From Escherichia virus TH47: a stretch of 64,000 bases of DNA. The DNA lies in the sequence record MT446416.1, one strand, 5' to 3'. Below the pieces are notes generated by a model. The model was not told where the DNA came from, did no database searches, and was given only the letters and a program-made list of their open reading frames with translations. Positions 4,981 through 64,000 of the stretch are shown in pieces (the stretch's first letter is position 1; each line of letters starts with the position of its first letter). Made by a program: the position numbers and the translations under genes.

Positions 4981-5409
4981 TTAGTACTGGGAATCTTCAT
5001 CTTCATCGTAGTAATCTTCTTCATCTTCATCTGATGTACCATAGAATTCAAGACCATACGTTTCACACATTTCTTGAATCTTATCAACATCAGTATCTAA
5101 GTAAGAATCAAAATTACCACTAAGACTAACTACATCAATAAACGTTGTAGTATCAGTACTTGCATAGATGATATCATATTTTAATGATTCAACTTTCGAG
5201 TCAATTCTGGTTTGCAATTCATAGATATTAATCCATGAATTAGTGTCAATATTACATCTCCAAACATTAGTATCGTCAGTTTCTAGTTCAGGTATATAGT
5301 CAAGTGAAGATACCATGTCATCCATAATACCATCACCATTCAACAATACATCAATTACATCTAACGTTTCTTGGTCACAGATAAAAGCAATACTAGATCT
5401 TAATTCCAT
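4981..5409 (-). CDS. hypothetical acidic protein (142 aa, C-terminal DEDEEDYYDEDEDSQY tail)
   Basis: ORF preceded by AAGGAAG and by an extended -10 element (TGATATAAT) about 36 nt upstream. Confidence 0.5.
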   Translation of the reverse strand: MELRSSIAFICDQETLDVIDVLLNGDGIMDDMVSSLDYIPELETDDTNVWRCNIDTNSWINIYELQTRIDSKVESLKYDIIYASTDTTTFIDVVSLSGNFDSYLDTDVDKIQEMCETYGLEFYGTSDEDEEDYYDEDEDSQY

Positions 5410-8601: not shown

Positions 8602-9063
8602 TTAGTCTAGTCGGCTATCTTCAATACCCGCAGCACGTAGTCTCACAATATTGTTTAACTGAAAAGCTTTCATCTCTAAGGATTTAACAATACTGGAATA
8701 TGTGTTACGGATATATGATACTTCATTTATAAGTTCAGATAATTCACAAACTTCTTTATCACCCTCAACATACTTTTTACAGTCAGAGGATGATAGTGCT
8801 CGACGATATGCTTCAAGGAAATATTTAAACTTTTCAGCTTGTAGTTGACGCATTTCAATTTCTAGCATTTCAAGTACAGCTTCAAGTTCTTGAAGCTGGC
8901 TGAGACGTGTCTCATGCCAGCCGGGAATCTCCTGTGCAATCTTCTCAATAATGCCAATCTTCTTAACTTCACGACGAGCTTCTTCAGTTTCTTTTTCGAA
9001 GTACTCAATCATGTCGATAATTTTAGATTTGTCATCTTTGATAATCCAGTGCCAAGGTTTCAT
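8602..9063 (-). CDS. UvsY-like recombination mediator (tentative)
   Basis: 153 aa; immediately downstream of and translationally coupled to uvsX. C-terminal segment IVKSLEMKAFQLNNIVRLRAAG loosely resembles the T4 UvsY C-terminus. Confidence 0.4.
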   Translation of the reverse strand: MKPWHWIIKDDKSKIIDMIEYFEKETEEARREVKKIGIIEKIAQEIPGWHETRLSQLQELEAVLEMLEIEMRQLQAEKFKYFLEAYRRALSSSDCKKYVEGDKEVCELSELINEVSYIRNTYSSIVKSLEMKAFQLNNIVRLRAAGIEDSRLD

Positions 9064-10181
9064 TATTCCTCACTAGTGTCGATATCAGTACCAAATGATT
9101 CATCACCTTTTTCTTCTTCTTTGACGTCTTCAATCAACGGGTGACGTTTGAATTGATTCATAACTAAATCAAGGCAAGAATCTTCGTTACGCATCCATTC
9201 TTTACGATATTTTAGAATCTGTTCACCAGTGTCTATATCAACGTACATTAGACGGTTACCCGATTTAACGATAAGTTCATATTTCTCAAACATATCTAGT
9301 AGACCACTGCGTGGGTCCATACCTTTATCCCAAGGAATTTTAATCTCAACATCTTCAAATGGCTTGTTGTAACGAGTCTTCATGACTTTACATTTAGAAC
9401 GAATACCACTTACATCTGAAGTCTTGTTGCCTTCTTCATCTTCTTTAAGTTTTAGTTTACCCATTGCGATAACCATAGAAGATGCATAAATCAAACCACT
9501 ACCACCAGATACTTTTGGGTCAGGGTTGAACATATCTTGGGATTCATAACTATGGTTTACACAAACCATACCAATGTTAAGTGAACCAATCGAGTTTACG
9601 CAGTTGGTGATGTAAGCTTTAAGCTGTTTAGGTTTGTGACCCATATCACCTTTCAAGTTACCAGCTTTCATCTGGTCATTAGCAACTTCAGTATTCAACA
9701 TACCAATTGAGTCGATAATGAATAATACTTTTTGACGTTCTTCTTTAGGAGTATTTTCGTATTCTTTACGATACCCTTCGATGAACTCATAGGTAAATTT
9801 AGCAACATCACCAATCATACCCATGTTTACTTTTAGTAGTTTTTCTTCTGAAGTGTCTACGCCTAGTGCTTGTAGCCAATCTGAATCCAATGCGTTCTCG
9901 GAATCAATCATAACAACAAAGATACCTTGTTGTTGTGCTTCACGGGCGATGTTTCCAGAAACGATAAATGATTTACCAGAACCAGATTCACCAGCAAACA
10001 TTGTTACTTTACCTAGTGGAATACCACGGTCAAAATAACCACTAATACGATAGTTCAAAGCAAAGTTACCAGTACTAATCCATGTATCAGGATCATGAAA
10101 GCCTACACTAACACCAGTATTCTTTTTAACACTACCAGTACTATTTTTTAGAATGTTTGCAAAACCACTTGTCATTTTCAT
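9063..10181 (-). CDS. uvsX: UvsX, RecA-like recombinase
   Basis: Walker A GESGSGKSF, Walker B-like VVMIDS and overall RecA/UvsX layout; 372 aa. Confidence 0.9.
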   Translation of the reverse strand: MKMTSGFANILKNSTGSVKKNTGVSVGFHDPDTWISTGNFALNYRISGYFDRGIPLGKVTMFAGESGSGKSFIVSGNIAREAQQQGIFVVMIDSENALDSDWLQALGVDTSEEKLLKVNMGMIGDVAKFTYEFIEGYRKEYENTPKEERQKVLFIIDSIGMLNTEVANDQMKAGNLKGDMGHKPKQLKAYITNCVNSIGSLNIGMVCVNHSYESQDMFNPDPKVSGGSGLIYASSMVIAMGKLKLKEDEEGNKTSDVSGIRSKCKVMKTRYNKPFEDVEIKIPWDKGMDPRSGLLDMFEKYELIVKSGNRLMYVDIDTGEQILKYRKEWMRNEDSCLDLVMNQFKRHPLIEDVKEEEKGDESFGTDIDTSEE

Positions 10182-10204
10182 AATTCGCTCCTTGAATTTT
10201 ATGA

Positions 10205-10233
10205 AATAAAACGGGGCAAACTCCGTTGCCCCT
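10205..10233 (-). terminator. terminator between gene 32 and uvsX
   Basis: Minus-strand reading GGGGCAAcggagtTTGCCCC followed by gttttattt. Confidence 0.55.
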
Positions 10234-10250
10234 TAACTTTTCAAATACTA

Positions 10251-11318
10251 TTACTTACCTTGTTGTTTCAAACGAGCAACTAGTGCAGATGCAGAAAGTT
10301 GTTCTTTTGGAGCTTCAGCTACTGGTGCTGGTGCAGTAGCTACTGGTTCAGCAGCAGGAGTAGGAGTAGCTACTGGTGCTTGCGGTGCAGGAGTTTGTGC
10401 AGGAGCAGGTTGTTGTACTGGAGCTTGTGGAGCAGGTTTGTTTTCACTAATAGTACCAGTTGTTGGTTTTTGTACACCTGCTGGACGGTAAGCGAAAGCC
10501 CAACGTGCAGGGTCATAAGGTTTACCATCAACAGATGCTTCGAACATTTCTTCGATAGCTTTTAGTTCTTCTGGAGTTGGTTGTTTTGGCATAAAATCAT
10601 TTAGATTATATAGACCAAACTTTTCAATCGCTGCTAGTTCTTCTTCATTGAGTGGACGCTCGGACATGGAGAATTGAGACATGTCATAGCTATTGTAACC
10701 ACCACCATTCTTAGTTTTAACAATACCAAAGTCACGACCATGAATATAGTGAGTTGGTAGTTCTTTGATGCCTGGATTTAGCAGGATAGATTTAACTTTA
10801 TCAAAGATATCTTTGTTAGCTAGGATACGACGGATTGGGTTTTCTGGAGCAATATCGTCTTTTACTGCTACGCTATCAGGAGCAACGAAACATTGCATTA
10901 GATAGGTTTTCTTTTTCCAGTAACGACCAGCCATTGCTTTCAGTTCTTCGTTTCCAGTTTCATTCGCACTTTGGAACCATTGACGTACTTCTTTAAGAAT
11001 TGGACATGATTTAGGAACCCACATTTCGTTACATGGTACTTGAACGGTAACTTTATCAGTGTGCATACCAACAATACCTTGGAACGTTAGGTTGATCATA
11101 TCACGTTCACGCCAGAAGAATGGGTTAGACTCATCAGCATCTGGTAGAAAACGTAGGTTTAGTGGTTCATTGTAAGGGACATTCCAGAAAGCTAGGAAAG
11201 AATCGGCTTTACGGTCGCCTGTAAATGTACCATTCTTCTGTGCTTCTGCTTTTTCTTGTTCAGCTTTTAGTTTTGCACGAATTTCAGCTAGAGTTTGCAT
11301 ATTGGGCTTCCTTGTCAT
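10251..11318 (-). CDS. 32: gp32-like ssDNA-binding protein with Pro/Ala-rich C-terminal tail
   Basis: N-terminal LNLRFLPDADESNPFFW resembles the T4 gp32 core (IRFLPSKNDEQAPF); His/Cys cluster HTDKVTVQVPCNEMWVPKSCP; strong AAGGAAG SD. C-terminus is a PAPQAP-type low-complexity linker. Confidence 0.75.
   Translation of the reverse strand: MTRKPNMQTLAEIRAKLKAEQEKAEAQKNGTFTGDRKADSFLAFWNVPYNEPLNLRFLPDADESNPFFWRERDMINLTFQGIVGMHTDKVTVQVPCNEMWVPKSCPILKEVRQWFQSANETGNEELKAMAGRYWKKKTYLMQCFVAPDSVAVKDDIAPENPIRRILANKDIFDKVKSILLNPGIKELPTHYIHGRDFGIVKTKNGGGYNSYDMSQFSMSERPLNEEELAAIEKFGLYNLNDFMPKQPTPEELKAIEEMFEASVDGKPYDPARWAFAYRPAGVQKPTTGTISENKPAPQAPVQQPAPAQTPAPQAPVATPTPAAEPVATAPAPVAEAPKEQLSASALVARLKQQGK
10290..10440. 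repeat. imperfect short tandem repeats (GCAGGAGNN / GCTACTGGT units) encoding the Pro/Ala-rich tail of gp32
   Basis: Repeated gctactggtgct, gcaggagtaggagta and gcaggagcaggt units on the plus strand, within the 3' end of gene 32. Confidence 0.6.
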
Positions 11319-11387
11319 TAGTTTGTTTGTTAAGTTTTAACGGGCTATTAACGTTGATTTGTCTTCATTGACTCATCAACAATTTAC

Positions 11388-11417
11388 ATTATATCATGGG
11401 ATTTTTAACCGTCCCAA
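11388..11417 (-). promoter_or_regulatory. sigma70-like promoter (TTGGGA - 18 nt - extended -10 TGATATAAT) upstream of gene 32
   Basis: Minus-strand reading ...TTGGGAcggttaaaaatcccaTGATATAAT..., about 70-95 nt before the gene 32 ATG. Confidence 0.5.
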
Positions 11418-11462
11418 GGTTTTTTACTCTGTTTGTCAAGGCTCATTGCCCTGACAAACATC

Positions 11463-16718
<5,256 letters not shown>

Positions 16719-55486: not shown

Positions 55487-55532
55487 ATCATAAATAAATC
55501 AAATGAATGAACGAATTATATGGAGTCCAAAA

Positions 55533-58500
55533 ATGACTAATAATTTTAAGTTTCAACCTACACAGATGGCTGAAGCAGTACAGAAGAAGCTTTTCATAAA
55601 AAGATTGCCTGAGTGGATGCAAGGCTTAGAAGATATTCAGAAAGTCAGTGATGATGTTATCCAACAATGGTTTAATCCGGCTGAAAACGAATTAGTTGAC
55701 GGCTACATTGGTGACATGGGTTCTCCGGCAGCAGCAGGGAACATCTTCTTACACGAGTCAACAGTCGCACGTCAACTATATCAGTTGTCCACTGCGTATG
55801 TCTCAAGAAATAATGACTCCAGCATTCGTTCAATTCAATTTTATGATGATCTAGTTGGCTATATGAATCATTACGGTGCACTAACCGAAAATGAAAGCCG
55901 TTTGTTTAATGGTAAGTTCTATTCATGGACCCCACCAATTAACCCAAATAAAATGAACAACTACAGTTCATACCTATGGGATTCCAAGAATAGCTATAAT
56001 ATCACAACTCCAGATTATATTGTTATGGAACGTGGTGCAGAAAATGGTAACACTTGGTCACTACAAAACTTCTGGTACACATTAGGTGAAACTTTAGAAG
56101 ATGGTACTATCCTAACTGAAGAACTAATGCAAGATTCCCGTTTTGTTCGTGCTCGTGCACCAATTATCGAATACAATAAAAATATCGAACTAATGAACTA
56201 CGGTACTAAATTCCGTGGAACAGTTGATTTGTTCTCTGATATTATTAAACCAGAAGATATCGTACAAAAAGATATTAACAGCGGTATACGTATCGATGGT
56301 ATTATTCCACAAGATGGTATGCGTATACTTTTCACCAGTATTGGTAACAATGGTGAAAACAACAGAATTTATAAAGTATATGTTAAACGTATGCAAGATG
56401 GAACACGTGTGTATGGTCTAGCATTAGATCCAGACGAAGAATCTGAAAGCCGTCCGAGTGGTGAACCACAAGATGGTGACGTAGTTCTTATTATCAAAGG
56501 TAATGAATTTGGTAACAGTTCCATGTATTGGAACGGTTCTCATTGGATTCAAGCACAGTCTAAAACTTCTGTGAACGTATTTCCACAATTCCAATTGTAT
56601 GACCGTAATGGTGTTAAACTAAACAACACTACTACCTATCCATCAAGTACTTTTACTGGTTCTTCACTATTTGGTTTTAAAATTAACTATAATTATGCAA
56701 CTGATAGCGTTTATGGTTATAACATTGAACTAGGTGATTACAATTATTACACATATGAGAATTTCCTACAATCAACTCGTTATACTTACGAGCATTTGGG
56801 TGTGGAAGTTGAAATTGATGGACTATATTACTATAACGTAATTGGTGAAGGTAATACAATGAACCTAGAAACTGATTGGGTTCGTAGTACTGAATACTCC
56901 AAACAATATGTTAAACAAACTCCACAGGTTGAACGTACAGTAATGTTTCGCGTGTTCAGTACTGTTTATGACATGGAAAGTTTCAAAGATCCAGTTGAAG
57001 GAATGTATGCTTATGTAATTGAAGTTGATAGAACATATCAATATTACAAAGCAGAACGTGAAACATATCTTGATTGGCATGTTATCGTTGGTGATGGTGT
57101 ACAAAGCGTTAAGTACAATCACACATTTGAATTGGCACAAAAAGTACTAGATAATTCTGATGATATTATTGAACTAGTTGTTGATGGTGTGGAAATAAAA
57201 GAATACACCAAAACTGTAGTTAATAATCAAGTACAAAGTATTACAATTGATAGCTCTGTTGATTTGGATGAAGATTCTGTTGTACAAATCAGAACTTATA
57301 GTAGCACTATCACTCCAAATAAAGAATTGGGTGCATATGAAGTTCCAATTAACCTACAAAATAACCCATATAATTCAAACATTGAATACATCAACCAAGG
57401 TGATTACACCCAGCACTTCCAAGATATTATTCAAAAGAATATTACATCTGGTTCTGCTGATGACTTTAACAATTACGAAGAACGTTTGGCTTCTGGTTTG
57501 GTTAATAATGGTGTAGGCACTAAAATTATTCAAAACGAAGCGTCCATGTTACCACTAATGGCACATACCGCTAATGAAGATATTGATTTGTTTGAATCAA
57601 TCATGTTTATGCAAGCAGAATACTTCCGCTTCATTAACAAGTTCAACACTCAAATGCTTCGTTTGTATGAAGAAGATCCAAGTGCTTTTCTTGGTAATAG
57701 TGCATCAAACATCGTAGATGCGATTCTAACAGCTATTAATATGGGACGTGATAGTACATTCCCATTCTACTATGACAACGTTGCAAGCACTGCTGGGTTT
57801 ATTCGTGCATTTGTCCCACCAACTCCACAGTTCTTGGGTATTTTGCAAGCTTATACACCACAAAAAGCAACATTCTTAACTGCTGGTAGTAAATCTAGCT
57901 GGTATAATATCAGTCATACTGGTATTATTTCAAAAGCATACCGTGTTATCAATGGTGTTGATAAAATGGATGACGTTGTTTTCGAATTGGAGAATCGTAT
58001 CTTTAATAGTATCGATCTTACTTTCAAGGATATTGATTATAAACCAGTACTAAACAGTGAAGATCTATTCCCAACTCCATATTTCACTGGTACTGATTAT
58101 AGTGCAGAAGAAAAGAAAACTCTATTGCTACGTGGTTACATTAACTTCACAGCAACCAATGGTATTAGTAACAGTACTCATGATTATGATGCAAATAACT
58201 GGAGAACTTGGAACTATACTGGTAGTTATTATGTTGTTGATGGTCAACGTACTGAAATTCCTGCTCGTGGTTCATGGCGTGCAATCTATACTGACCAATA
58301 CGGCACATATCGTCCAGCAACCCATCCGTGGGAAATGATGGGCTTCTCTCAACGTCCTACTTGGTGGAACCAAGAATACGAACCAACCGCAGTTCAAGTT
58401 GGTGAACGTGAAGGTGATGTTGTTTATGTGTATGAAGCACTAGTAATGAATGAAAGTGGTGATTTGGTCCCAAGTGGTTTGTGGGATATTGATGGTACTA

Positions 58501-61500
58501 TCGGTGACAGCAGTACTGGTACTATTTTGTCAGGTGAACGCCGTGGTCAATATGACAAATACAAGCGTTTCGGTGTACAGCCATTTAAAATCACTAAGAC
58601 TGGCGAGAAAACCAGCACTGGTATTGATATTTGTGAAGTTGAGTATATTGCACCTGAAGTTTTAGGTCTTGTTAGTGGTAATTTGGATCATCGTGCAGAA
58701 CCGTGGGCTTATGGTGACATGGGTGACATGGAATTCACTTACATGAACACTGCGATGTTTGCTTATGACCAAATGCTTCTTCTATACAAAGCAAAACCAG
58801 CACAGTTTGCAAACTATTACTGGGATACCCGTAATGATAACCTTAAACCAGTTTATACTGATGGTTCACAGTTCCTTTATGGTGAAACCCGTAAGCGTCT
58901 AAACTTTGACAGTACTACATTAGTACATGGTGAGAAAAATACCCGTACTATCGGTTATCAAATGTTTGTTAGTGACTATTTGATGTATCAGAACAAGAAC
59001 ATTACCACCAAATACGGTGACGTTGTTCGTTCTTCTTATGTCAATGTCGCTCACAAAATTGGTGGCTTTACTAAAGCAGACCAATTGACATTCACTGCTA
59101 AATCTTTCGGTTTGATTTCACAAGAAAACCAAACTATCGGTCTAGTTCGTTCCAATAACATTCTCGATGAGCAAATGAGTGCAGTAAAAATTACTTGGAA
59201 TGGTAGTGCATATCAAATTGATGGTTATGATTTAGTTGGTGCTAAATTTAAATATAAAATTCCAGTTAAAAATGGAAGAAAAGTAACTCTTAAATTGGAA
59301 GACAGAACTGTTGTTCATTACAATGAATGGAAATCTGAAGGTACATTAGAATATGGTAAAATATTCAATACATACCAAGAAGTTTATACTTTCATTTGTG
59401 GATATGGTGAATATCTAAAAGAACATGGCTGGATTTTTGAAGATGTAAATGATAGTGGTGCTCAACAAGACTGGACAACTATTGCTAAAGACTTTGTTAT
59501 TTGGAGTCAGAATAGTTTAAGTACTGGCGAGTTCATCTCCTGTACTCCAAGTGCAGCTAATGCTAAATTTGGTGCAGATTTTGGTTCAGTTCAATCTGTT
59601 ACACAGAACAGTGGTGGTGTTTGGTCATTACTTGATGATGAAAACCAAGGTATCCGTCAATATGAAATCGAAACTTCGCGTATCGGTAACGTATTCACAG
59701 TGAGAACTACATCCGAATCACAAAAACGTATGGCGTTGATTCGTTTGAGCCTAAGTTCATATGAACACGCAGTTGTTTTTGATGATAAAACTATCTTTGG
59801 TGATTTCATTTACCAACCAACTTATGGTGCTATTCAAGAATTGATTAAAATGTATGGTTACATTACTGGGTCATGGACTGGTCGCCTACAAGCACCTGGT
59901 TTCATTATCCTAGAAGCAGGAACTTTACCATCATTTGAAAAATTAGTAACTGATTTTGATTTATATTATAATAGTGAAACTCCTGTGAGTGATGTTCAGC
60001 TTCAAGAGTTATCAAATCACTTGATTGGCTATCAAACTCGTGATTATCTACAACGTATGATTAGTAGTGATGTTAGTCGTGTTGATTTCTATAAAGGATT
60101 CATTCATGACAAAGGTACTAACCAAGTAATGGAAAAAGTACTACGTGTTTCTAAATCTTACGACACTGATGAATATAAAGCACTTCAGGAATGGGCATTT
60201 AAGATTGGTACTTATGGTAATATCAATGGTAAGAAAAATCTACAATTTAAACTAATCAATGACCAATTTAAACAACAACCACAGATGGTTTCGTTTGATG
60301 TTAATGCTACATCAAATGGTACTGGTAATGGTATTGTTTATTACGGTGAACAAGGGGTTGACCCACGCTGGATTACTCGCCCAAATGGTAAGTTTTCATT
60401 CCCAATGCGTAGTGGAAGAAGTGAGAACATTCAACTTCCAGACATTGGCCCTGTAACACTAGATGAAATTTCATATGTTACTAAAGATTTCAGTACTGCA
60501 TATAATGATCGTATCAATTATATGAATAACAGTGGTGAAATCCCAGATTCTGTATGGATGTTTAAAGATGGTAATGATTTGTGGAATATTTTCGAACTAG
60601 TAGACACTGAAGTTGAGATGCTCTCTATCGTTCCAATTGAAAATACCGATGTATATGCAGAACAATTCTGTAAAGTAACTCTAAGTGATGATATCCCACT
60701 AAATGATGGTGATTATTATTACTTTGTTGATGAAACTAACTTTATGCCAGATACATTGACTATAGAAAGTCAATATTATACTGCGGGTAATGACCCTAGA
60801 GTTATGGTAGTTCCGTTTGACACTTCAATCACTATTGACTTCACTGATCCTGATACTCGCCCACGCTTGTATCGTTATGTTTCACGATTCAGTACTGAAG
60901 AGATGCGTCAGGAATACATTGACAGAAAATATAGTTTTAAAGCTCCACAAAGTACTTTGTTTGACCGCCCAACCACATATGATGAGCGTACTAACATTAC
61001 TGCGTTGTACCTAAACGTGTTTGACCCAATCAACGGTGTTATTCCTGGTGCAGCGATGCAGAACGTTACCTACACATCTCCAGTTGACCCAGCACAATAC
61101 AACAGCAATGGTGAATTGATTCAAGCATGGGGTGCTGATAAAGTTGGTCAGGTTTGGTGGAACACCAGCACTGCTTTCTACTTAGATTACACTCGTGCAA
61201 TCTATGATGCTGATGGTAATGTGGATGTTGATGCAACAAATGAATATAAACGTTATAACTGGGGCAGATTGCTACCGCACAGTACTGTTGATGTTCTTGA
61301 ATGGGTATGTTCGCCAGTTGAACCATATAACTGGGACAAATACTGCAAAGACGTTGCTAACAAAAATAAAAACAACACTATGTACCTACCAAGCGGAACC
61401 GCATTGGAAGATAATTATAGTACGTTCTTAGAATATGATAGCACAACTGATACTTATGTTACAAAATACTATTTCTGGGTGCGTGATACAATCTATGTGC

Positions 61501-64000
61501 CACCATTGCATTCCAGAACTAAATCTTGTACTGATATTGCTCGTATTATTAAAGAACCAGCACAGCTTAACATTCCTTGGTTTGCACCAATCAATGAAAG
61601 CTCGTTCATTCTAAGTAATATGCAATTTGAAGTCAACGATGACACAAGTATTTTAACTGTTTCTTATTACATGGATAATACTGAAGTTATTAAACATGAC
61701 CAGTATCAATTATGTAAAGAAGGTGATAGCTATAACTTCAATCCATCAATCTGGACTTCTATGTGGAATTCTATGATTGGTCAAGAAACTACTGAATCAG
61801 GAACTGTTATTGATTTACTATATCCTTTAGTACCAAACGGTTTAGGTTCTAATAAGACTTGGTTCCAAGATGTAATTGAAGCTCGTAGAAACTTTGTAGA
61901 AAGTGCAAATAACTATTATCGCTCACAGAATATAACAACTAACACTGTTCTAATGGACGAAGTGTTTAATGTTAAAACTACTGAAGTTAACCCGAATGAA
62001 GTATCATATCGTGTACTAACTTACAATAGTGAATTAGTCATTGCACCTGAAAGTGACAAGTTCAAAGAAAACGACGCAGTACTAGTAAGTACTAGTGGTG
62101 TATTACCTAACCCACTATCAACTAGCTCTGTATATTTTGTGCATATTGATGCTAATGGTTATATTCATCTAATGAATAGCCCATCAAGTGCTGGTAGTGT
62201 GGTTACCATTACATTGGAAAACCGTGGTGAAGGTCAACAGAAAATGATTAAACAATCAGACTATGTTGAAGCACTAGGAACTTCATTGGACATGACCCAG
62301 TACTGGTCACTAGCAGATTGGTATGATATTGGCTACGATAAAAATACTGCATATACACAAGAATCCAGCCTAGAAGATGCAAACACTAAGAACTATCAAG
62401 TTGGTGACATTATCAGAATTACAGATGTTGATGGCATCTGGACATTGTACATTAAAGCACAATCACGTGATTCAGTTTACTGGAAAGCAATTGGTCGTGA
62501 AAATAGTACAGTTGAATTGAATGATATGTTATACGCTGACTATACAGTTCGTGATGCTAATGGTTCGTTGAGTAATCGTGAGATTAACGTTCGTAAAGCA
62601 CTAGCTTTATTGAAGAACTCATTCGATTTACATCAGAGTGAAATTGTGTTTGATATGGTTAAGTATGTTCACGTAGAACAAAGCGTTGTTGATTGGGTAT
62701 TCAAAACATCTTACATTTATATTGTAGGTTTAGAACAATCATTAGTACAGAACTATTCCAACGACAACTTGATTAATCAAATCGTTGAGTACTTTGAAGA
62801 AGTTAAACCATATAGAACTAAGATTCGTTCCCAGATTGAACAGAAAACTTCAGATGATGATTTAATTAAAGGTTTGTGTAATGATTTAGATCCTAATGGC
62901 TATATATTTGCAGATGGGACTTGGGTTAAAACGGAAAAAGACATTTGGGATTATGAATATGCTCAATTCAATGAGGTAACTCAACGTTGGGAGCAAGTTG
63001 GTGAATTGCCAAGTGATTTCGTAACACCTAATCGCCGTTTCCAAGAAATTGATGTTATCATGCACTACGACAACACTCAATGTAAACCAAATGATAATTT
63101 GGCAAGTGTTGATGTATTGGAAGAAGTGAATAAAAAATATCAATCTAATGCACAAGATGTTGTTAGTGATTTTGAATTACAACGTTACAAATATACATTC
63201 CCAGAATACAGTGATGAAGATTTCGACCTATTGGTTGCTTATCAGATGCAATTGTATTACCCAGAATTGAACGTAACTCTAGGGATTGCTTATGGTGTTA
63301 ACCAATGGTATGCAGAACATGCAGATGATTTGGTAGCAACCGCAGAATTCACAGAAACGTTGAATCGTGTATATAAAGAATCAACACAGAATGAAATGTT
63401 TAATGACGTAAATCATTATGTTCAGTATAACACACTCTCTAACCGTTTGAAATTGTACACAGGTGCAGATGATGAAGTAATTCATGATGAGGTTGGATGT
63501 GGATTTAGTGGGTTAACTTACGATGATAATCCAAGCACCAGACTACCGTTTGGTTACGCATCCAGTACTGATTATAACTTTGGTTACTTTGAAGTTAGTA
63601 GTGAGTTGTATAATAAGTATGTTTCTTTAATTAAAGAAAACAATACTACTGCAACTGATGATGAAGTTAGAATTATACTTGAAGTTGAATATGGTGTTTA
63701 TTCATATCGCCATGTAGATGAAGATGGAAATCAACGATTCTACAATGACGCAATTCATGTATTGTCCGGTATGCGTGGTTTGTATGACAAAGATGCTACC
63801 GACCATTATGAAAAGGCTGAAGAAATACTAAGTAGAATGCCTATTGATATTCATGCATTTACTATGATGCCACGAAAATATGTTTATGTTAATGTTAATG
63901 GTGTATACGAGAGTATCCCAGATGACCAAAGCATTGATGATTTCATGGAAGACAAATTCATAACTGACGGTCAACTAGTTCAATTGGCAGAAATAAATCT
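55533..64000 (+). CDS. giant virion-associated protein (at least 2822 aa, C-terminus beyond window), function unknown
   Basis: ATG at 55533 with GGAG SD; frame spot-checked open at 56193, 57000, 60000 and 63000. No in-frame stop through 64000 and no competing plus-strand ORFs in the track across about 8.5 kb. Confidence 0.6.
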   Translation, partial: MTNNFKFQPTQMAEAVQKKLFIKRLPEWMQGLEDIQKVSDDVIQQWFNPAENELVDGYIGDMGSPAAAGNIFLHESTVARQLYQLSTAYVSRNNDSSIRSIQFYDDLVGYMNHYGALTENESRLFNGKFYSWTPPINPNKMNNYSSYLWDSKNSYNITTPDYIVMERGAENGNTWSLQNFWYTLGETLEDGTILTEELMQDSRFVRARAPIIEYNKNIELMNYGTKFRGTVDLFSDIIKPEDIVQKDINSGIRIDGIIPQDGMRILFTSIGNNGENNRIYKVYVKRMQDGTRVYGLALDPDEESESRPSGEPQDGDVVLIIKGNEFGNSSMYWNGSHWIQAQSKTSVNVFPQFQLYDRNGVKLNNTTTYPSSTFTGSSLFGFKINYNYATDSVYGYNIELGDYNYYTYENFLQSTRYTYEHLGVEVEIDGLYYYNVIGEGNTMNLETDWVRSTEYSKQYVKQTPQVERTVMFRVFSTVYDMESFKDPVEGMYAYVIEVDRTYQYYKAERETYLDWHVIVGDGVQSVKYNHTFELAQKVLDNSDDIIELVVDGVEIKEYTKTVVNNQVQSITIDSSVDLDEDSVVQIRTYSSTITPNKELGAYEVPINLQNNPYNSNIEYINQGDYTQHFQDIIQKNITSGSADDFNNYEERLASGLVNNGVGTKIIQNEASMLPLMAHTANEDIDLFESIMFMQAEYFRFINKFNTQMLRLYEEDPSAFLGNSASNIVDAILTAINMGRDSTFPFYYDNVASTAGFIRAFVPPTPQFLGILQAYTPQKATFLTAGSKSSWYNISHTGIISKAYRVINGVDKMDDVVFELENRIFNSIDLTFKDIDYKPVLNSEDLFPTPYFTGTDYSAEEKKTLLLRGYINFTATNGISNSTHDYDANNWRTWNYTGSYYVVDGQRTEIPARGSWRAIYTDQYGTYRPATHPWEMMGFSQRPTWWNQEYEPTAVQVGEREGDVVYVYEALVMNESGDLVPSGLWDIDGTIGDSSTGTILSGERRGQYDKYKRFGVQPFKITKTGEKTSTGIDICEVEYIAPEVLGLVSGNLDHRAEPWAYGDMGDMEFTYMNTAMFAYDQMLLLYKAKPAQFANYYWDTRNDNLKPVYTDGSQFLYGETRKRLNFDSTTLVHGEKNTRTIGYQMFVSDYLMYQNKNITTKYGDVVRSSYVNVAHKIGGFTKADQLTFTAKSFGLISQENQTIGLVRSNNILDEQMSAVKITWNGSAYQIDGYDLVGAKFKYKIPVKNGRKVTLKLEDRTVVHYNEWKSEGTLEYGKIFNTYQEVYTFICGYGEYLKEHGWIFEDVNDSGAQQDWTTIAKDFVIWSQNSLSTGEFISCTPSAANAKFGADFGSVQSVTQNSGGVWSLLDDENQGIRQYEIETSRIGNVFTVRTTSESQKRMALIRLSLSSYEHAVVFDDKTIFGDFIYQPTYGAIQELIKMYGYITGSWTGRLQAPGFIILEAGTLPSFEKLVTDFDLYYNSETPVSDVQLQELSNHLIGYQTRDYLQRMISSDVSRVDFYKGFIHDKGTNQVMEKVLRVSKSYDTDEYKALQEWAFKIGTYGNINGKKNLQFKLINDQFKQQPQMVSFDVNATSNGTGNGIVYYGEQGVDPRWITRPNGKFSFPMRSGRSENIQLPDIGPVTLDEISYVTKDFSTAYNDRINYMNNSGEIPDSVWMFKDGNDLWNIFELVDTEVEMLSIVPIENTDVYAEQFCKVTLSDDIPLNDGDYYYFVDETNFMPDTLTIESQYYTAGNDPRVMVVPFDTSITIDFTDPDTRPRLYRYVSRFSTEEMRQEYIDRKYSFKAPQSTLFDRPTTYDERTNITALYLNVFDPINGVIPGAAMQNVTYTSPVDPAQYNSNGELIQAWGADKVGQVWWNTSTAFYLDYTRAIYDADGNVDVDATNEYKRYNWGRLLPHSTVDVLEWVCSPVEPYNWDKYCKDVANKNKNNTMYLPSGTALEDNYSTFLEYDSTTDTYVTKYYFWVRDTIYVPPLHSRTKSCTDIARIIKEPAQLNIPWFAPINESSFILSNMQFEVNDDTSILTVSYYMDNTEVIKHDQYQLCKEGDSYNFNPSIWTSMWNSMIGQETTESGTVIDLLYPLVPNGLGSNKTWFQDVIEARRNFVESANNYYRSQNITTNTVLMDEVFNVKTTEVNPNEVSYRVLTYNSELVIAPESDKFKENDAVLVSTSGVLPNPLSTSSVYFVHIDANGYIHLMNSPSSAGSVVTITLENRGEGQQKMIKQSDYVEALGTSLDMTQYWSLADWYDIGYDKNTAYTQESSLEDANTKNYQVGDIIRITDVDGIWTLYIKAQSRDSVYWKAIGRENSTVELNDMLYADYTVRDANGSLSNREINVRKALALLKNSFDLHQSEIVFDMVKYVHVEQSVVDWVFKTSYIYIVGLEQSLVQNYSNDNLINQIVEYFEEVKPYRTKIRSQIEQKTSDDDLIKGLCNDLDPNGYIFADGTWVKTEKDIWDYEYAQFNEVTQRWEQVGELPSDFVTPNRRFQEIDVIMHYDNTQCKPNDNLASVDVLEEVNKKYQSNAQDVVSDFELQRYKYTFPEYSDEDFDLLVAYQMQLYYPELNVTLGIAYGVNQWYAEHADDLVATAEFTETLNRVYKESTQNEMFNDVNHYVQYNTLSNRLKLYTGADDEVIHDEVGCGFSGLTYDDNPSTRLPFGYASSTDYNFGYFEVSSELYNKYVSLIKENNTTATDDEVRIILEVEYGVYSYRHVDEDGNQRFYNDAIHVLSGMRGLYDKDATDHYEKAEEILSRMPIDIHAFTMMPRKYVYVNVNGVYESIPDDQSIDDFMEDKFITDGQLVQLAEIN

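What the first reader, a model, noticed from the sequence alone, without database searches (positions are those of the whole stretch)
11319..11472. Gene 32 leader with two exact TGATATAAT extended -10 elements, a 6+6 palindrome and an A/C-rich unstructured tract
The upstream region holds two identical extended -10 boxes about 75 nt apart, the proximal one with TTGGGA at -35 spacing, separated by TTGTCA...TGACAA. The roughly 95 nt leader ends in aacaaacaaacta before a strong SD. T4 gene 32 mRNA is autoregulated through an unstructured leader next to a structured element, so this may be the equivalent operator. The same TGATATAAT 9-mer recurs before gene 4981..5409.
Basis: partly seen in the sequence, partly recalled or inferred. 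Interest (0 to 1): 0.4.

Follow-up and report, generated by a model that had tools for sequence, protein, structure and literature searches.

The report
Tandem promoters and leader of phage gene 32
The stretch upstream of a jumbo coliphage's single-strand-DNA-binding gene holds two conserved promoters of a published phage-specific type, each followed by a hairpin, and an A-rich leader with a short conserved motif. This is an ordinary but well-conserved control region that may, untested, work like the T4 gene 32 self-repression site.

Summary
The window is a RaK2-like (Asteriusvirus-related) E. coli jumbo phage.

- **Promoters.** The two TGATATAAT boxes (11471-11463, 11396-11388) belong to the promoter class published for GAP32 and CBB: a box 13 nt upstream of TGnTATAAT. 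The box is GAGACA/GGGACG here and TGAAACG there. All 22 relatives examined, out to a Vibrio phage, keep two such promoters upstream of gene 32 (JNE01 has three).
- **Hairpins.** Each promoter is followed at once by a hairpin. A second, 28-nt hairpin starts at the proximal transcription start. Both are supported by compensatory changes.
- **Leader.** About 52 A-rich nt follow. The only conserved islands are UAACAAAGAA (AACAAACAAAC here) and the Shine-Dalgarno AAGGAAG, then ATG 11300. The motif is about 175-fold enriched in gene 32 leaders.
- **Gene unit.** An intrinsic terminator follows the gene.

The layout resembles the T4 gene 32 operator (structure, then an unstructured tract, then the ribosome site). 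However, there is no pseudoknot, no Rfam match, and no excess unpairedness or internal repetition in this window. Promoter function is well supported by comparison. Autoregulation is plausible but untested.

The parts
11493..11499 (-). A7 tract upstream of the distal -35-like box (UP-element-like), inside the 3' end of the structural gene
   Evidence: Sequence. A-rich positions at the same place in the relatives' promoter alignment.
11485..11490 (-). Distal promoter -35-like box GAGACA, 16-nt spacer to TATAAT
   Evidence: 121Q has GGGACA in the same register.
11463..11471 (-). Distal extended -10 TGATATAAT. The stop codon TAG of the structural gene is at 11475-11473.
   Evidence: 38.8 bits. 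Conserved in all relatives.
11431..11459 (-). Hairpin D: 12-13 bp stem GUUUGUCAGGGC/GCCUUGACAAAC with loop AAUGA. It starts at the predicted distal transcription start and has no U-tract after it.
   Evidence: I1.: -20.4 kcal/mol, z = -6.7. Covariation: 100% of cells paired, 3 pairs changed on both sides. Not called a terminator.
11420..11425 (-). A6 tract directly upstream of the proximal -35-like box (UP-element-like)
   Evidence: An A-tract at this position in nearly all relatives. The CBB paper notes UP-like elements for its classical RpoD-like promoters, not for this class.
11410..11415 (-). Proximal promoter -35-like box GGGACG, 16-nt spacer.
11388..11396 (-). Proximal extended -10 TGATATAAT. 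Predicted transcription start at 11383-11380.
   Evidence: 34.8 bits. In relatives the proximal box starts 86-126 nt upstream of the ATG (56 nt in the Vibrio phage).
11353..11380 (-). Hairpin P: 28 nt, outer stem GUUGAU/AUCAAC, inner stem GUC/GAC, loop AAUGAA, at the 5' end of the proximal transcript
   Evidence: I2.: -10.0 kcal/mol, z = -2.9. Covariation: 5 of 11 pairs changed on both sides, 0 of 500 shuffles reach the score. A hairpin at the same place in 16 of 17 relatives folded.
11301..11352 (-). A-rich leader tract (48% A, 12% G). It holds UUAA(A) three times and the conserved island UAACAAACAAAC at 11332-11321.
   Evidence: invariant island; ACAAAGAA: 34 hits in 2,070 nt of leaders vs 15 in 160 kb; the only 5'-UTR occurrence in the window; composition and unpaired probability.
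11307..11313 (-). Shine-Dalgarno AAGGAAG, 6 nt before the start codon
   Evidence: AAGGA is invariant in alignment A1.
10251..11300 (-). Gene 32 homologue (gp32-family SSB, 349 aa from ATG 11300)
   Evidence: Start as annotated in fEgEco12 and 121Q.
10213..10232 (-). Intrinsic terminator after gene 32: GGGGCAACGGAGUUUGCCCC followed by GUUUUAUUUC
   Evidence: ARNOLD terminator annotated at the equivalent place in phage G17.

Best explanation
The region is the expression cassette of a single-gene transcription unit for the phage SSB, a gp32 homologue.

**Transcription.** Two tandem promoters of the clade's phage-specific sigma-70-like class drive it. Each has an A-tract, a GGGACR/GAGACA box, a 16-nt spacer and an extended -10 TGATATAAT. 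The class is probably read by host core polymerase with either host sigma-70 or the phage-encoded RpoD-like sigma. An intrinsic terminator at 10232-10213 ends the unit.

**5' stem-loops.** Each promoter's predicted start lies at the foot of a stem-loop, so both mRNAs would begin with a 5'-terminal hairpin. I infer that this protects against 5'-end-dependent decay. The distal hairpin also sits 15 nt after the upstream late gene's stop codon and probably serves as that gene's 3' end structure.

**Leader.** Both transcripts carry the same roughly 80-nt proximal leader: a 28-nt hairpin with a conserved AAUGAA-type loop, about 52 A-rich and G-poor nucleotides containing the conserved island UAACAAAGAA (AACAAACAAAC here), a strong Shine-Dalgarno, then AUG.

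**Most likely role of the leader (inferred, about 40%).** It is a translational operator analogous to that of T4 gene 32. Free SSB would load at or next to the hairpin, spread along the single-stranded A-rich tract over the ribosome site, and be titrated away by ssDNA.

**What is shown.** The elements exist, they are conserved, the stems covary, and the motif is specific to gene 32 leaders.

**What is inferred.** Transcription start sites, the sigma factor used, mRNA stabilisation, and SSB binding and repression.
For: - **Identity of the phage.** 99.5% identical to Ecwhy_1 and fEgEco12, 87% to Asteriusvirus. Gene order is TerL, virion protein, gp32, UvsX, UvsY.
- **Promoter class.** A matrix built from relatives finds 8 sites, all on the coding strand, against 0.07 per shuffle. 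The same architecture, TGAAACG-N13-TGnTATAAT, is published for CBB and GAP32 and concentrated in front of DNA-metabolism genes. Asteriusvirus encodes an RpoD-like sigma.
- **Tandem arrangement.** It is kept in every RaK2-like relative and in a Vibrio phage whose SSB is 58% identical. PA5oct and the more distant environmental contigs have a single canonical promoter instead.
- **Hairpins.** D: -20.4 kcal/mol, z = -6.7. P: -10.0 kcal/mol, z = -2.9. Compensatory changes are seen in both, and modestly in other genera. Across 47 promoter instances, the first 38 nt (starting 5 nt after the -10 box) are more stable than background windows: median percentile 0.07, and 64% at or below 0.10.
- **Leader.** The only invariant islands are AACAAAGAA and AAGGA. 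ACAAAGAA is about 175-fold enriched in gene 32 leaders. It is absent from other 5' UTRs in the 64-kb window.
- **Gene end.** A terminator follows the gene.
- **T4 paradigm.** Structure plus a >40-nt unstructured tract overlapping the ribosome site. Distant gp32 clades also show a hairpin followed by clade-specific repeated motifs before the SD.
Against: - There are no transcript or binding data for any phage of this clade.
- In this window the A-rich tract is predicted no more unpaired than shuffled sequence (0.61 vs 0.58 +/- 0.06).
- Internal repeats in the tract are at chance level (p = 0.67).
- No pseudoknot-like loop-to-downstream pairing exceeds chance.
- No Rfam family matches.
- The SSB is only a remote gp32 relative: phmmer finds no PDB gp32 chain. 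It also lacks T4's acidic C-terminus.
- The covariation sets are small (5-9 sequences) and the structures were derived from those same sequences.
- The motif enrichment counts related genomes, not independent events.
- The window's motif copy differs from the consensus (C in place of G).
Confidence: 0.5

Rival explanations
1. High-output leader only. The 5'-terminal hairpins stabilise the mRNA and the A-rich, G-poor tract with the ACAAAGAA island acts as a ribosome-recruiting translational enhancer or standby site. The SSB exerts no feedback.
For: - The SSB is needed stoichiometrically, which fits tandem strong promoters, a strong SD and a terminator-bounded unit.
- The conserved island resembles the SD context (AAAGAA vs AAGGAA).
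- Hairpins sit exactly at the predicted starts of both promoters and of most relatives' promoters.
- There is no pseudoknot and no excess repetition in this window.
Against: - A generic enhancer should recur before other highly expressed genes. The motif is found in no other 5' UTR of about 70 genes here.
- Distant gp32 clades carry different motifs at the same place (WAGGCA, CACAATTTAG), although ribosomes are conserved. That points to a clade-specific partner.
- The conserved loop on covarying stems suggests recognition by a factor.
Confidence: 0.35
2. Hairpin D is mainly the transcription terminator or 3'-end structure of the upstream late virion gene. The distal box is a re-start promoter overlapping it, forming a composite promoter/stem-loop cassette that has been tandemly duplicated, like the PeSL/PmSL cassettes of T4-like phages. 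This can coexist with the main explanation.
For: - The hairpin starts 13 nt after the stop codon.
- The upstream gene carries a late-type ATAAATA motif.
- In JNE01 the orthologous hairpin is followed by UUUUC, and there are three promoter-hairpin units.
- The two units here share TGATATAATg...GUC..CAAUGA..GAC....
- Promoter 24240 is likewise followed by a hairpin plus U-tract.
- PeSL/PmSL cassettes are described in PMC4122927.
Against: - In this window the hairpin is followed by CAGAGUAAAAAA with no U-tract. The terminator scan does not call it, nor does the ARNOLD annotation of G17.
- PeSLs lie in hyperplastic regions next to variable ORFs, with the stem-loop upstream of the promoter. This locus is in the conserved core and the order is promoter then stem-loop.
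Confidence: 0.3
3. The hairpin-loop AUG opens a small upstream ORF (AUG AAG ACA AAU CAA CGU UAA, 11367-11347). Its translation would control hairpin opening or gene 32 translation.
For: An AUG in or next to the hairpin loop, with a short ORF and often an SD-like AGGAA just upstream, is seen in 121Q, ph0011, RaK2, Munch, L020, L022 and L023 (my reading of the sequences).
Against: - A4 has ACG, UE-S1 has AUU, and Hallingskeid has no AUG at that place.
- SD-to-AUG spacing is only 2-3 nt.
- The peptides are not conserved.
- The window itself has no good SD before this AUG.
Confidence: 0.05
4. The boxes are chance AT-rich matches and the region is simply a spacer.
For: The genome is 36% GC. Two of the five TGATATAAT copies in the window lie inside ORFs without an upstream box.
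Against: - Two exact copies occur within 154 nt, where about 0.002 is expected from the window-wide rate.
- The matrix scores far exceed the shuffle maximum.
- Boxes, spacing and A-tracts are conserved across genera while flanks diverge.
Confidence: 0.03

Closest known systems
Bacteriophage T4 gene 32 translational operator (autogenous repression by gp32)
   Same: It sits in the 5' leader of the SSB gene. A structured element of about 28 nt lies at the 5' end (-80 to -53 here; about -67 in T4). A tract of more than 40 nt, A-rich and weakly structured, follows and runs into the SD and AUG. The window's tract even holds three UUAA(A) elements. T4 gene 32 mRNA is described as intrinsically more stable than typical prokaryotic mRNA (PMC535899, PMC3014915).
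   Different: The structure is a simple interrupted hairpin, not a pseudoknot. The tract is A/C-rich rather than A/U-rich. The conserved element is a single UAACAAAGAA island rather than UUAAA repeats. There is no sequence or Rfam similarity. The protein is a remote gp32 relative with a Pro/Ala/Gln-rich, non-acidic tail. Repression is untested.
'Divergent RpoD-like' promoters of Cronobacter phage GAP32 and Pectobacterium phage CBB (TGAAACG-N13-TGnTATAAT)
   Same: The geometry is identical: a box 13 nt upstream of TG, then an extended -10 TGnTATAAT. In CBB 11 of the 18 listed sites lie upstream of ORFs 258-329, a block holding many DNA-synthesis genes including the SSB gene CBB_277. A matrix from that clade family recovers the sites here.
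   Different: The box is GGGACR/GAGACA in this lineage instead of TGAAACG. The published CBB table does not list the pair in front of its SSB gene; the proximal box begins 94 nt upstream of the CBB start codon, at the edge of the 100 bp that the authors submitted to MEME. The tandem arrangement and its conservation are not described there.
T4 middle promoters (MotA box at -30 plus sigma-70 -10, often extended)
   Same: A non-canonical upstream box is combined with a strong, often TG-extended -10, in front of replication genes. The clade-specific box suggests a phage-encoded specificity factor.
   Different: The box sits at the normal -35 distance (16-nt spacer) and keeps the ACA of TTGACA. No MotA or AsiA homologue was looked for. 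A phage RpoD-like sigma is the proposed factor. The comparison with T4 rests on my own knowledge.
PeSL/PmSL composite promoter/stem-loop cassettes of T4-like phages
   Same: Short conserved units combine a promoter and a stem-loop. They are repeated and prone to duplication: there are three units in JNE01.
   Different: The order here is promoter then stem-loop. The locus is in the conserved core, not next to variable ORFs. The hairpin here lacks a U-tract.
5'-terminal stem-loop mRNA stabilisers (E. coli ompA leader; T4 gene 32 leader)
   Same: The stem-loop begins within 0-3 nt of the predicted 5' end of both transcripts.
   Different: 5' ends are predicted, not mapped, and no half-life data exist. 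The comparison rests on my own knowledge.

Membership tests
Sigma-70-type extended -10 promoter | TGn immediately upstream of a TATAAT-like hexamer | tested here: met
   TGATATAAT, an exact match, occurs twice.
Sigma-70-type extended -10 promoter | -35-like hexamer at a 16-18 nt spacing | tested here: met
   GAGACA (16 nt) and GGGACG (16 nt) or TTGGGA (18 nt); each matches 3-4 of 6 positions of TTGACA.
Sigma-70-type extended -10 promoter | Transcripts start 6-8 nt downstream of the -10 element | not testable with these tools
   No transcript data. Needs 5'-end mapping.
GAP32/CBB divergent RpoD-like promoter class | Conserved box exactly 13 nt upstream of TGnTATAAT | tested here: met
   Gap-free alignment of 25 sites. 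Matrix hits. Same geometry as CBB Table S6. The box sequence is a lineage variant (GGGACR vs TGAAACG).
GAP32/CBB divergent RpoD-like promoter class | Placed in front of DNA-metabolism (middle-type) genes | tested here: met
   The sites precede the gp32 gene and other intergenic starts on the coding strand, including the gene after the helicase. A weaker TGCTATAAT at 16698 precedes the RNase H-like gene but is below the 14-bit cut-off.
GAP32/CBB divergent RpoD-like promoter class | Recognised by a particular sigma factor (host or phage RpoD-like) | not testable with these tools
   Only proposed in the literature.
T4 gene 32 translational operator | Lies in the 5' leader of the gp32 gene and overlaps its ribosome site | tested here: met
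T4 gene 32 translational operator | 5' RNA pseudoknot of about 28 nt as nucleation site | tested here: not met
   A 28-nt hairpin is present. Loop-to-downstream complementarity is at chance in 10 leaders. This was a simple complementarity test, not a full pseudoknot prediction.
T4 gene 32 translational operator | Unstructured tract of more than 40 nt with repeated UUAAA/UAAA elements | tested here: inconclusive
   52-nt tract, 48% A, three UUAA(A). Predicted unpairedness is 0.61 vs 0.58 in shuffles here, though higher than shuffles in several relatives. Internal repeats are not above chance.
T4 gene 32 translational operator | gp32 binds the leader cooperatively and represses translation; ssDNA relieves the repression | not testable with these tools
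   Needs purified protein or genetics.
T4 gene 32 translational operator | Sequence or structure similarity to a curated RNA family | tested here: not met
   Only one chance-level Rfam hit (IBV_D-RNA, E = 0.5), on the other strand.
Intrinsic (Rho-independent) terminator (hairpin D) | Stable G+C-containing stem | tested here: met
   -20.4 kcal/mol.
Intrinsic (Rho-independent) terminator (hairpin D) | U-tract directly after the stem | tested here: not met
   Followed by CAGAGUAAAAAA and not called. The JNE01 orthologue has UUUUC.
PeSL/PmSL cassette | Stem-loop terminator upstream of the promoter, in hyperplastic regions next to variable ORFs | tested here: not met
   Conserved core locus (TerL, virion protein, gp32, UvsX) in all relatives, and the order is reversed.

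The most novel reading that the evidence does not exclude
The 28-nt hairpin with its AAUGAA-type loop, together with the UAACAAAGAARC island, is a pseudoknot-free translational operator through which the RaK2-like SSB represses its own mRNA. Other gp32-encoding jumbo phage clades would carry analogous operators built from a 5' hairpin and their own short repeats (WAGGCA; CACAAUUUAG; AUAAGRCUC). SSB autoregulation would then be ancestral to the T4 superfamily, with its RNA target co-evolving with the protein.
Probability: 0.3. Interest if true: 0.6.

Novelty: new variant of a known kind. Interest (0 to 1): 0.38.

Why it matters
The promoters add a lineage variant (GGGACR box) to a promoter class so far only predicted in GAP32 and CBB. 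They are also kept as a conserved tandem pair in front of the SSB gene across at least four named genera, several unclassified phages and a Vibrio phage. That makes them a convenient, strongly constrained test case for asking which sigma factor reads this class in jumbo phages that encode their own RpoD-like sigma.

The leader gives a concrete target, a hairpin plus a 10-nt conserved island, for testing whether SSB autoregulation, known only for T4, RB69 and close kin, extends to distant gp32 homologues without a pseudoknot.

If neither holds, it is simply a well-built high-expression cassette.

Tried and rejected
- **Rfam scan of 11200-11600, both strands.** Only a chance hit.
- **RNAalifold on the sequence-only alignment of 14 leaders.** It missed the 5' hairpin because the stems are not in register across genera. 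I therefore used small gap-free sub-alignments. These are partly fitted to the structure.
- **Pseudoknot test (loop vs downstream complementarity).** At chance level.
- **Plus-strand terminator-like site at 11397-11416** (TGGGA..TCCCA plus T-run). Rejected: the hairpin is no better than shuffles (z = +0.36). The T-run is the complement of the conserved A-tract.
- **Unpaired-probability test.** The tract in the window is not distinguishable from shuffles.
- **Intra-leader repeat enrichment.** Not significant in the window or in any RaK2-like leader; significant only in some distant clades.
- **Alternative pairing between hairpin D's 5' arm and the leader island** (direct repeat D1). Not conserved in 121Q-type leaders, where the island is ACAAAG.
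- **Long-range pairing UUGGG (11417-11413) with CCCAA (11306-11302) in the distal transcript**. The structure has an ensemble frequency of 0.018 and is not conserved.
- **uORF idea.** Inconsistent across relatives.
- **Leader island as the -35 box of a third promoter.** No -10 element lies at the right distance (reading).
- **phmmer of the SSB against PDB.** No gp32 chain found, so homology rests on the Pfam and PHROG profiles.
- **Literature search for the motif.** Nothing relevant.
- **tRNA scan of the window.** None found.
Full report
**What the window is.** The region 10200-12800 is 99.3-99.6% identical to the Escherichia jumbo phages Ecwhy_1, fEgEco12, Turkey3, EC.P1 and others. It is about 87% identical to Asteriusvirus (121Q, PBECO4, phAPEC6, G17). 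It is 60-80% identical to Klebsiella (RaK2), Salmonella, Erwinia, Serratia and Pectobacterium jumbo phages.

All genes around the finding are on the minus strand:
- large terminase, 12810-14147
- a virion structural protein, 11473-12777
- a gp32-family SSB, 10251-11300 (Pfam gp32 E = 7.5e-7; PHROG 1192 E = 2.5e-97)
- UvsX, 9063-10181
- UvsY, 8602-9063

The ORF tool starts the SSB at 11318. That ATG has no Shine-Dalgarno and no counterpart in relatives. ATG 11300 follows AAGGAAG by 6 nt and is the start annotated in fEgEco12 and 121Q.

**The observation.**
- TGATATAAT lies at 11471-11463 and 11396-11388.
- A third copy at 5453-5445 precedes ORF 4981-5409.
- There are five copies in all, all on the minus strand, against 1.69 expected.
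- The palindrome is longer than described: 13-nt arms, 92% complementary, 5-nt loop.
- The tract aacaaacaaacta and the SD are as stated.

**The boxes are promoters of a known phage class.** I pulled the interval between the virion gene and gene 32 from 16 sequenced relatives and about 9 further non-redundant IMG/VR contigs.
- Every RaK2-like phage has two TGnTATAAT boxes upstream of gene 32. This covers Asteriusvirus, Alcyoneusvirus, Eneladusvirus, Mimasvirus, the Munch and Hallingskeid types, and a Vibrio phage whose SSB is only 58% identical. JNE01 has three.
- The 25 sites align without gaps. Each shows an A-rich stretch, then a box exactly 13 nt upstream of TG, then TGnTATAAT, then usually G or A.
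- The box is GGGACA, GAGACA or GGGACG in this lineage, TGAACA in RaK2, and TGAAACG in Mimasvirus and Eneladusvirus. Read as a -35 hexamer it has a 16-nt spacer.
- A weight matrix built only from the relatives finds 8 sites above 14 bits in the 64-kb window, against 0.07 per shuffle. All are on the minus strand and 7 are intergenic. They lie at 11471, 11396, 38487, 24240, 44214, 20293, 5453 and 600.

This is the class that Buttimer et al. described for phage CBB, and cite for GAP32, as a promoter with a classical -10 but TGAAACG instead of TTGACA. In CBB 11 of the 18 listed sites lie upstream of ORFs 258-329, a block holding many DNA-synthesis genes, among them the SSB gene CBB_277 (PMC5259590). 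Their Table S6 does not list the pair before the SSB gene; the proximal box begins 94 nt upstream of the CBB start codon, at the edge of the 100 bp they submitted to MEME. CBB and the Asteriusvirus Sharanji encode an RpoD-like sigma factor. Which holoenzyme reads the box is unknown.

The upstream virion gene carries the clade's late-type ATAAATA motif at 12813-12807. Gene 32 therefore has its own promoters next to a late gene. It is closed by an intrinsic terminator at 10232-10213.

**Hairpins at both starts.**
- *Hairpin D.* The distal -10 is followed after 3 nt by GUUUGUCAGGGC-AAUGA-GCCUUGACAAAC (11459-11431; -20.4 kcal/mol, z = -6.7). Among six Asteriusvirus-type sequences every cell of the 12-pair stem is a standard pair. 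Three pairs show changes on both sides, for example A-U, G-C and G-U at one position.
- *No terminator signature.* In this window hairpin D is followed by CAGAGUAAAAAA with no U-tract. Neither my scan nor the ARNOLD annotation of G17 calls it a terminator. JNE01 has UUUUC there.
- *Hairpin P.* The proximal -10 is followed after 7 nt by a 28-nt hairpin (11380-11353; -10.0 kcal/mol, z = -2.9). In a gap-free alignment with 121Q, ph0011, UE-S1 and A4, 5 of 11 pairs change on both sides. No shuffle of 500 reaches the covariation score. Sliding the partner drops pairing from 82% to 49% or less.
- *Other genera.* The equivalent hairpin in Mimasvirus and Eneladusvirus shows modest covariation. The loop stays purine-rich (AAUGAA, ACGAA, AGGAA, AUGAA) while the stems change.
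- *Across all instances.* Over 47 promoter instances, the first 38 nt (starting 5 nt after the -10 box) are more stable than background windows of the same loci. The median percentile is 0.07, and 64% are at or below 0.10.
- *Caveats.* The sets are small, the structures come from these same sequences, and the start sites are predicted.

**The leader.** From the predicted start (11383-11380) to ATG 11300 is about 81 nt. After hairpin P come 52 nt with 48% A and 12% G.

In a 14-genome alignment the only invariant islands are AACAAAGAA (AACAAACAA in the window, 11331-11323) and the SD AAGGA. The sequence between them varies. The 8-mer ACAAAGAA occurs 34 times in 23 gene 32 leaders (2,070 nt) and 15 times in the other 160 kb of those loci, counting both strands. 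That is about a 175-fold enrichment, though the genomes are related. In the 64-kb window the motif family occurs in no other 5' UTR.

Tests that did not support a T4-like operator in this window:
- Predicted unpairedness of the tract equals that of shuffles here (0.61 vs 0.58), though it is higher than shuffles in 121Q, ph0011, UE-S1, Hallingskeid and Yen9-03.
- Internal repetition is at chance (p = 0.67).
- Loop-to-downstream complementarity is at chance, so there is no sign of a pseudoknot.
- No Rfam family matches.

**Comparison with T4.** According to Borjac-Natour et al. (PMC535899) and Uzan and Miller (PMC3014915), the T4 operator has three parts. There is a roughly 28-nt pseudoknot about 67 nt upstream of the AUG. 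A >40-nt weakly structured tract with UUAAA/UAAA repeats overlaps the ribosome site. gp32 nucleates at the pseudoknot and spreads cooperatively. The mRNA is described as intrinsically more stable than typical prokaryotic mRNA.

The window has the same grammar: a 28-nt structure at -80 to -53, then an A-rich tract with three UUAA(A), then the SD. It does not have the defining pseudoknot and shares no sequence similarity. It therefore works-like at best and is not a member.

**More distant clades.** Some support for a gene-specific, co-evolving RNA target comes from more distant gp32 clades.
- Environmental contigs with 40-52% identical SSBs have a canonical TTGACA-type promoter, a 5' hairpin, and then two to four WAGGCA repeats before the SD (15 in 770 nt vs 18 in 40.9 kb).
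- Atu_ph07 has three tandem CACAAUU(U)AG repeats after a hairpin, and Phosso has two AUAAGRCUC.
- Intra-leader repetition is significant in five of these distant leaders (L036, L039, L046, L048 and PA5oct).
- Because ribosomes are conserved but the motifs differ by clade, I lean slightly towards a clade-specific partner such as the SSB. This is inference only.

**Verdict.**
- The promoter reading is strongly supported by comparison (about 0.9). It places the sites in a published class, with a lineage-specific box and a previously unlisted, deeply conserved tandem arrangement.
- The palindrome is a covarying stem-loop at the start of the distal transcript and the end of the late gene.
- The operator hypothesis is plausible (about 0.4) and now has defined targets. 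The main rival, a stability and translation leader without feedback (about 0.35), is not excluded.

Overall this is a well-conserved but conventional regulatory region: a new variant of known kinds, of moderate interest.

Noticed in passing
window 12810-15112 (minus strand): The large terminase is split into three overlapping ORFs (14426-15112, 14110-14454, 12810-14147) here and in fEgEco12. It is two ORFs in 121Q and G17, and a single ORF of about 889 aa in RaK2 and JNE01. This could be a programmed frameshift, separate subunits or decay; I cannot say which.
   Followed up: partly
window 55494-64000 (plus strand): One reading frame stays open from 55494 to the end of the window (more than 2,835 codons). 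This is a giant gene cut by the window, which is why no long ORFs are listed there. No tRNA genes occur anywhere in the window.
   Followed up: partly
window 38487-38479 (minus strand): This is the third-best promoter-class hit (30 bits; GAGACA-N13-TGCTATAAT). It points into about 1.9 kb where the longer ORFs are on the plus strand, and no clear minus-strand gene follows. It may drive an antisense or non-coding transcript, or small unannotated ORFs.
   Followed up: partly
window 24240-24190 (minus strand): A promoter-class site (TGATACAAT) is followed at once by the hairpin GTCATCTTACA..TGTGAGATGAC plus ATTTTTT. The predicted start would lie inside the 5' arm of a terminator-like hairpin. This arrangement could stop upstream transcripts while sparing those started here.
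   Followed up: no
window 12813-12807 (minus strand): ATAAATA, the late-promoter-like motif reported for CBB and GAP32, overlaps the terminase stop codon 30 nt upstream of the virion structural gene's ATG (12777).
   Followed up: no
window 10251-10480 (minus strand; C-terminus of the SSB): The SSB ends in a Pro/Ala/Gln-rich low-complexity region of about 60 aa and a short basic tail (..LVARLKQQGK). T4 gp32 has an acidic C-terminal domain there. Relatives align only over residues 1 to about 285.
   Followed up: no
L036-L050, L051 (Phosso), L052 (Atu_ph07), L018 (PA5oct): about 100 nt upstream of the SSB gene: Distant gp32-encoding phages have a single canonical TTGACA-type promoter, a 5' hairpin, and clade-specific short repeats before the SD: WAGGCA two to four times; CACAATT(T)AG three times; ATAAGRCTC twice; TTARGGATAA twice.
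   Followed up: partly
L006 (JNE01) 1910-2200: JNE01 (and, from the similar split match, probably Turkey5) carries three promoter-hairpin units upstream of gene 32 instead of two. This shows recent duplication of the unit of about 80 bp.
   Followed up: partly
window 11417-11413 with 11306-11302 (minus strand): In the long transcript from the distal promoter, the minimum-energy fold pairs UUGGG (the proximal -35 region) with CCCAA between the SD and the AUG. The structure has low ensemble frequency (0.018) and is not conserved in 121Q.
   Followed up: partly
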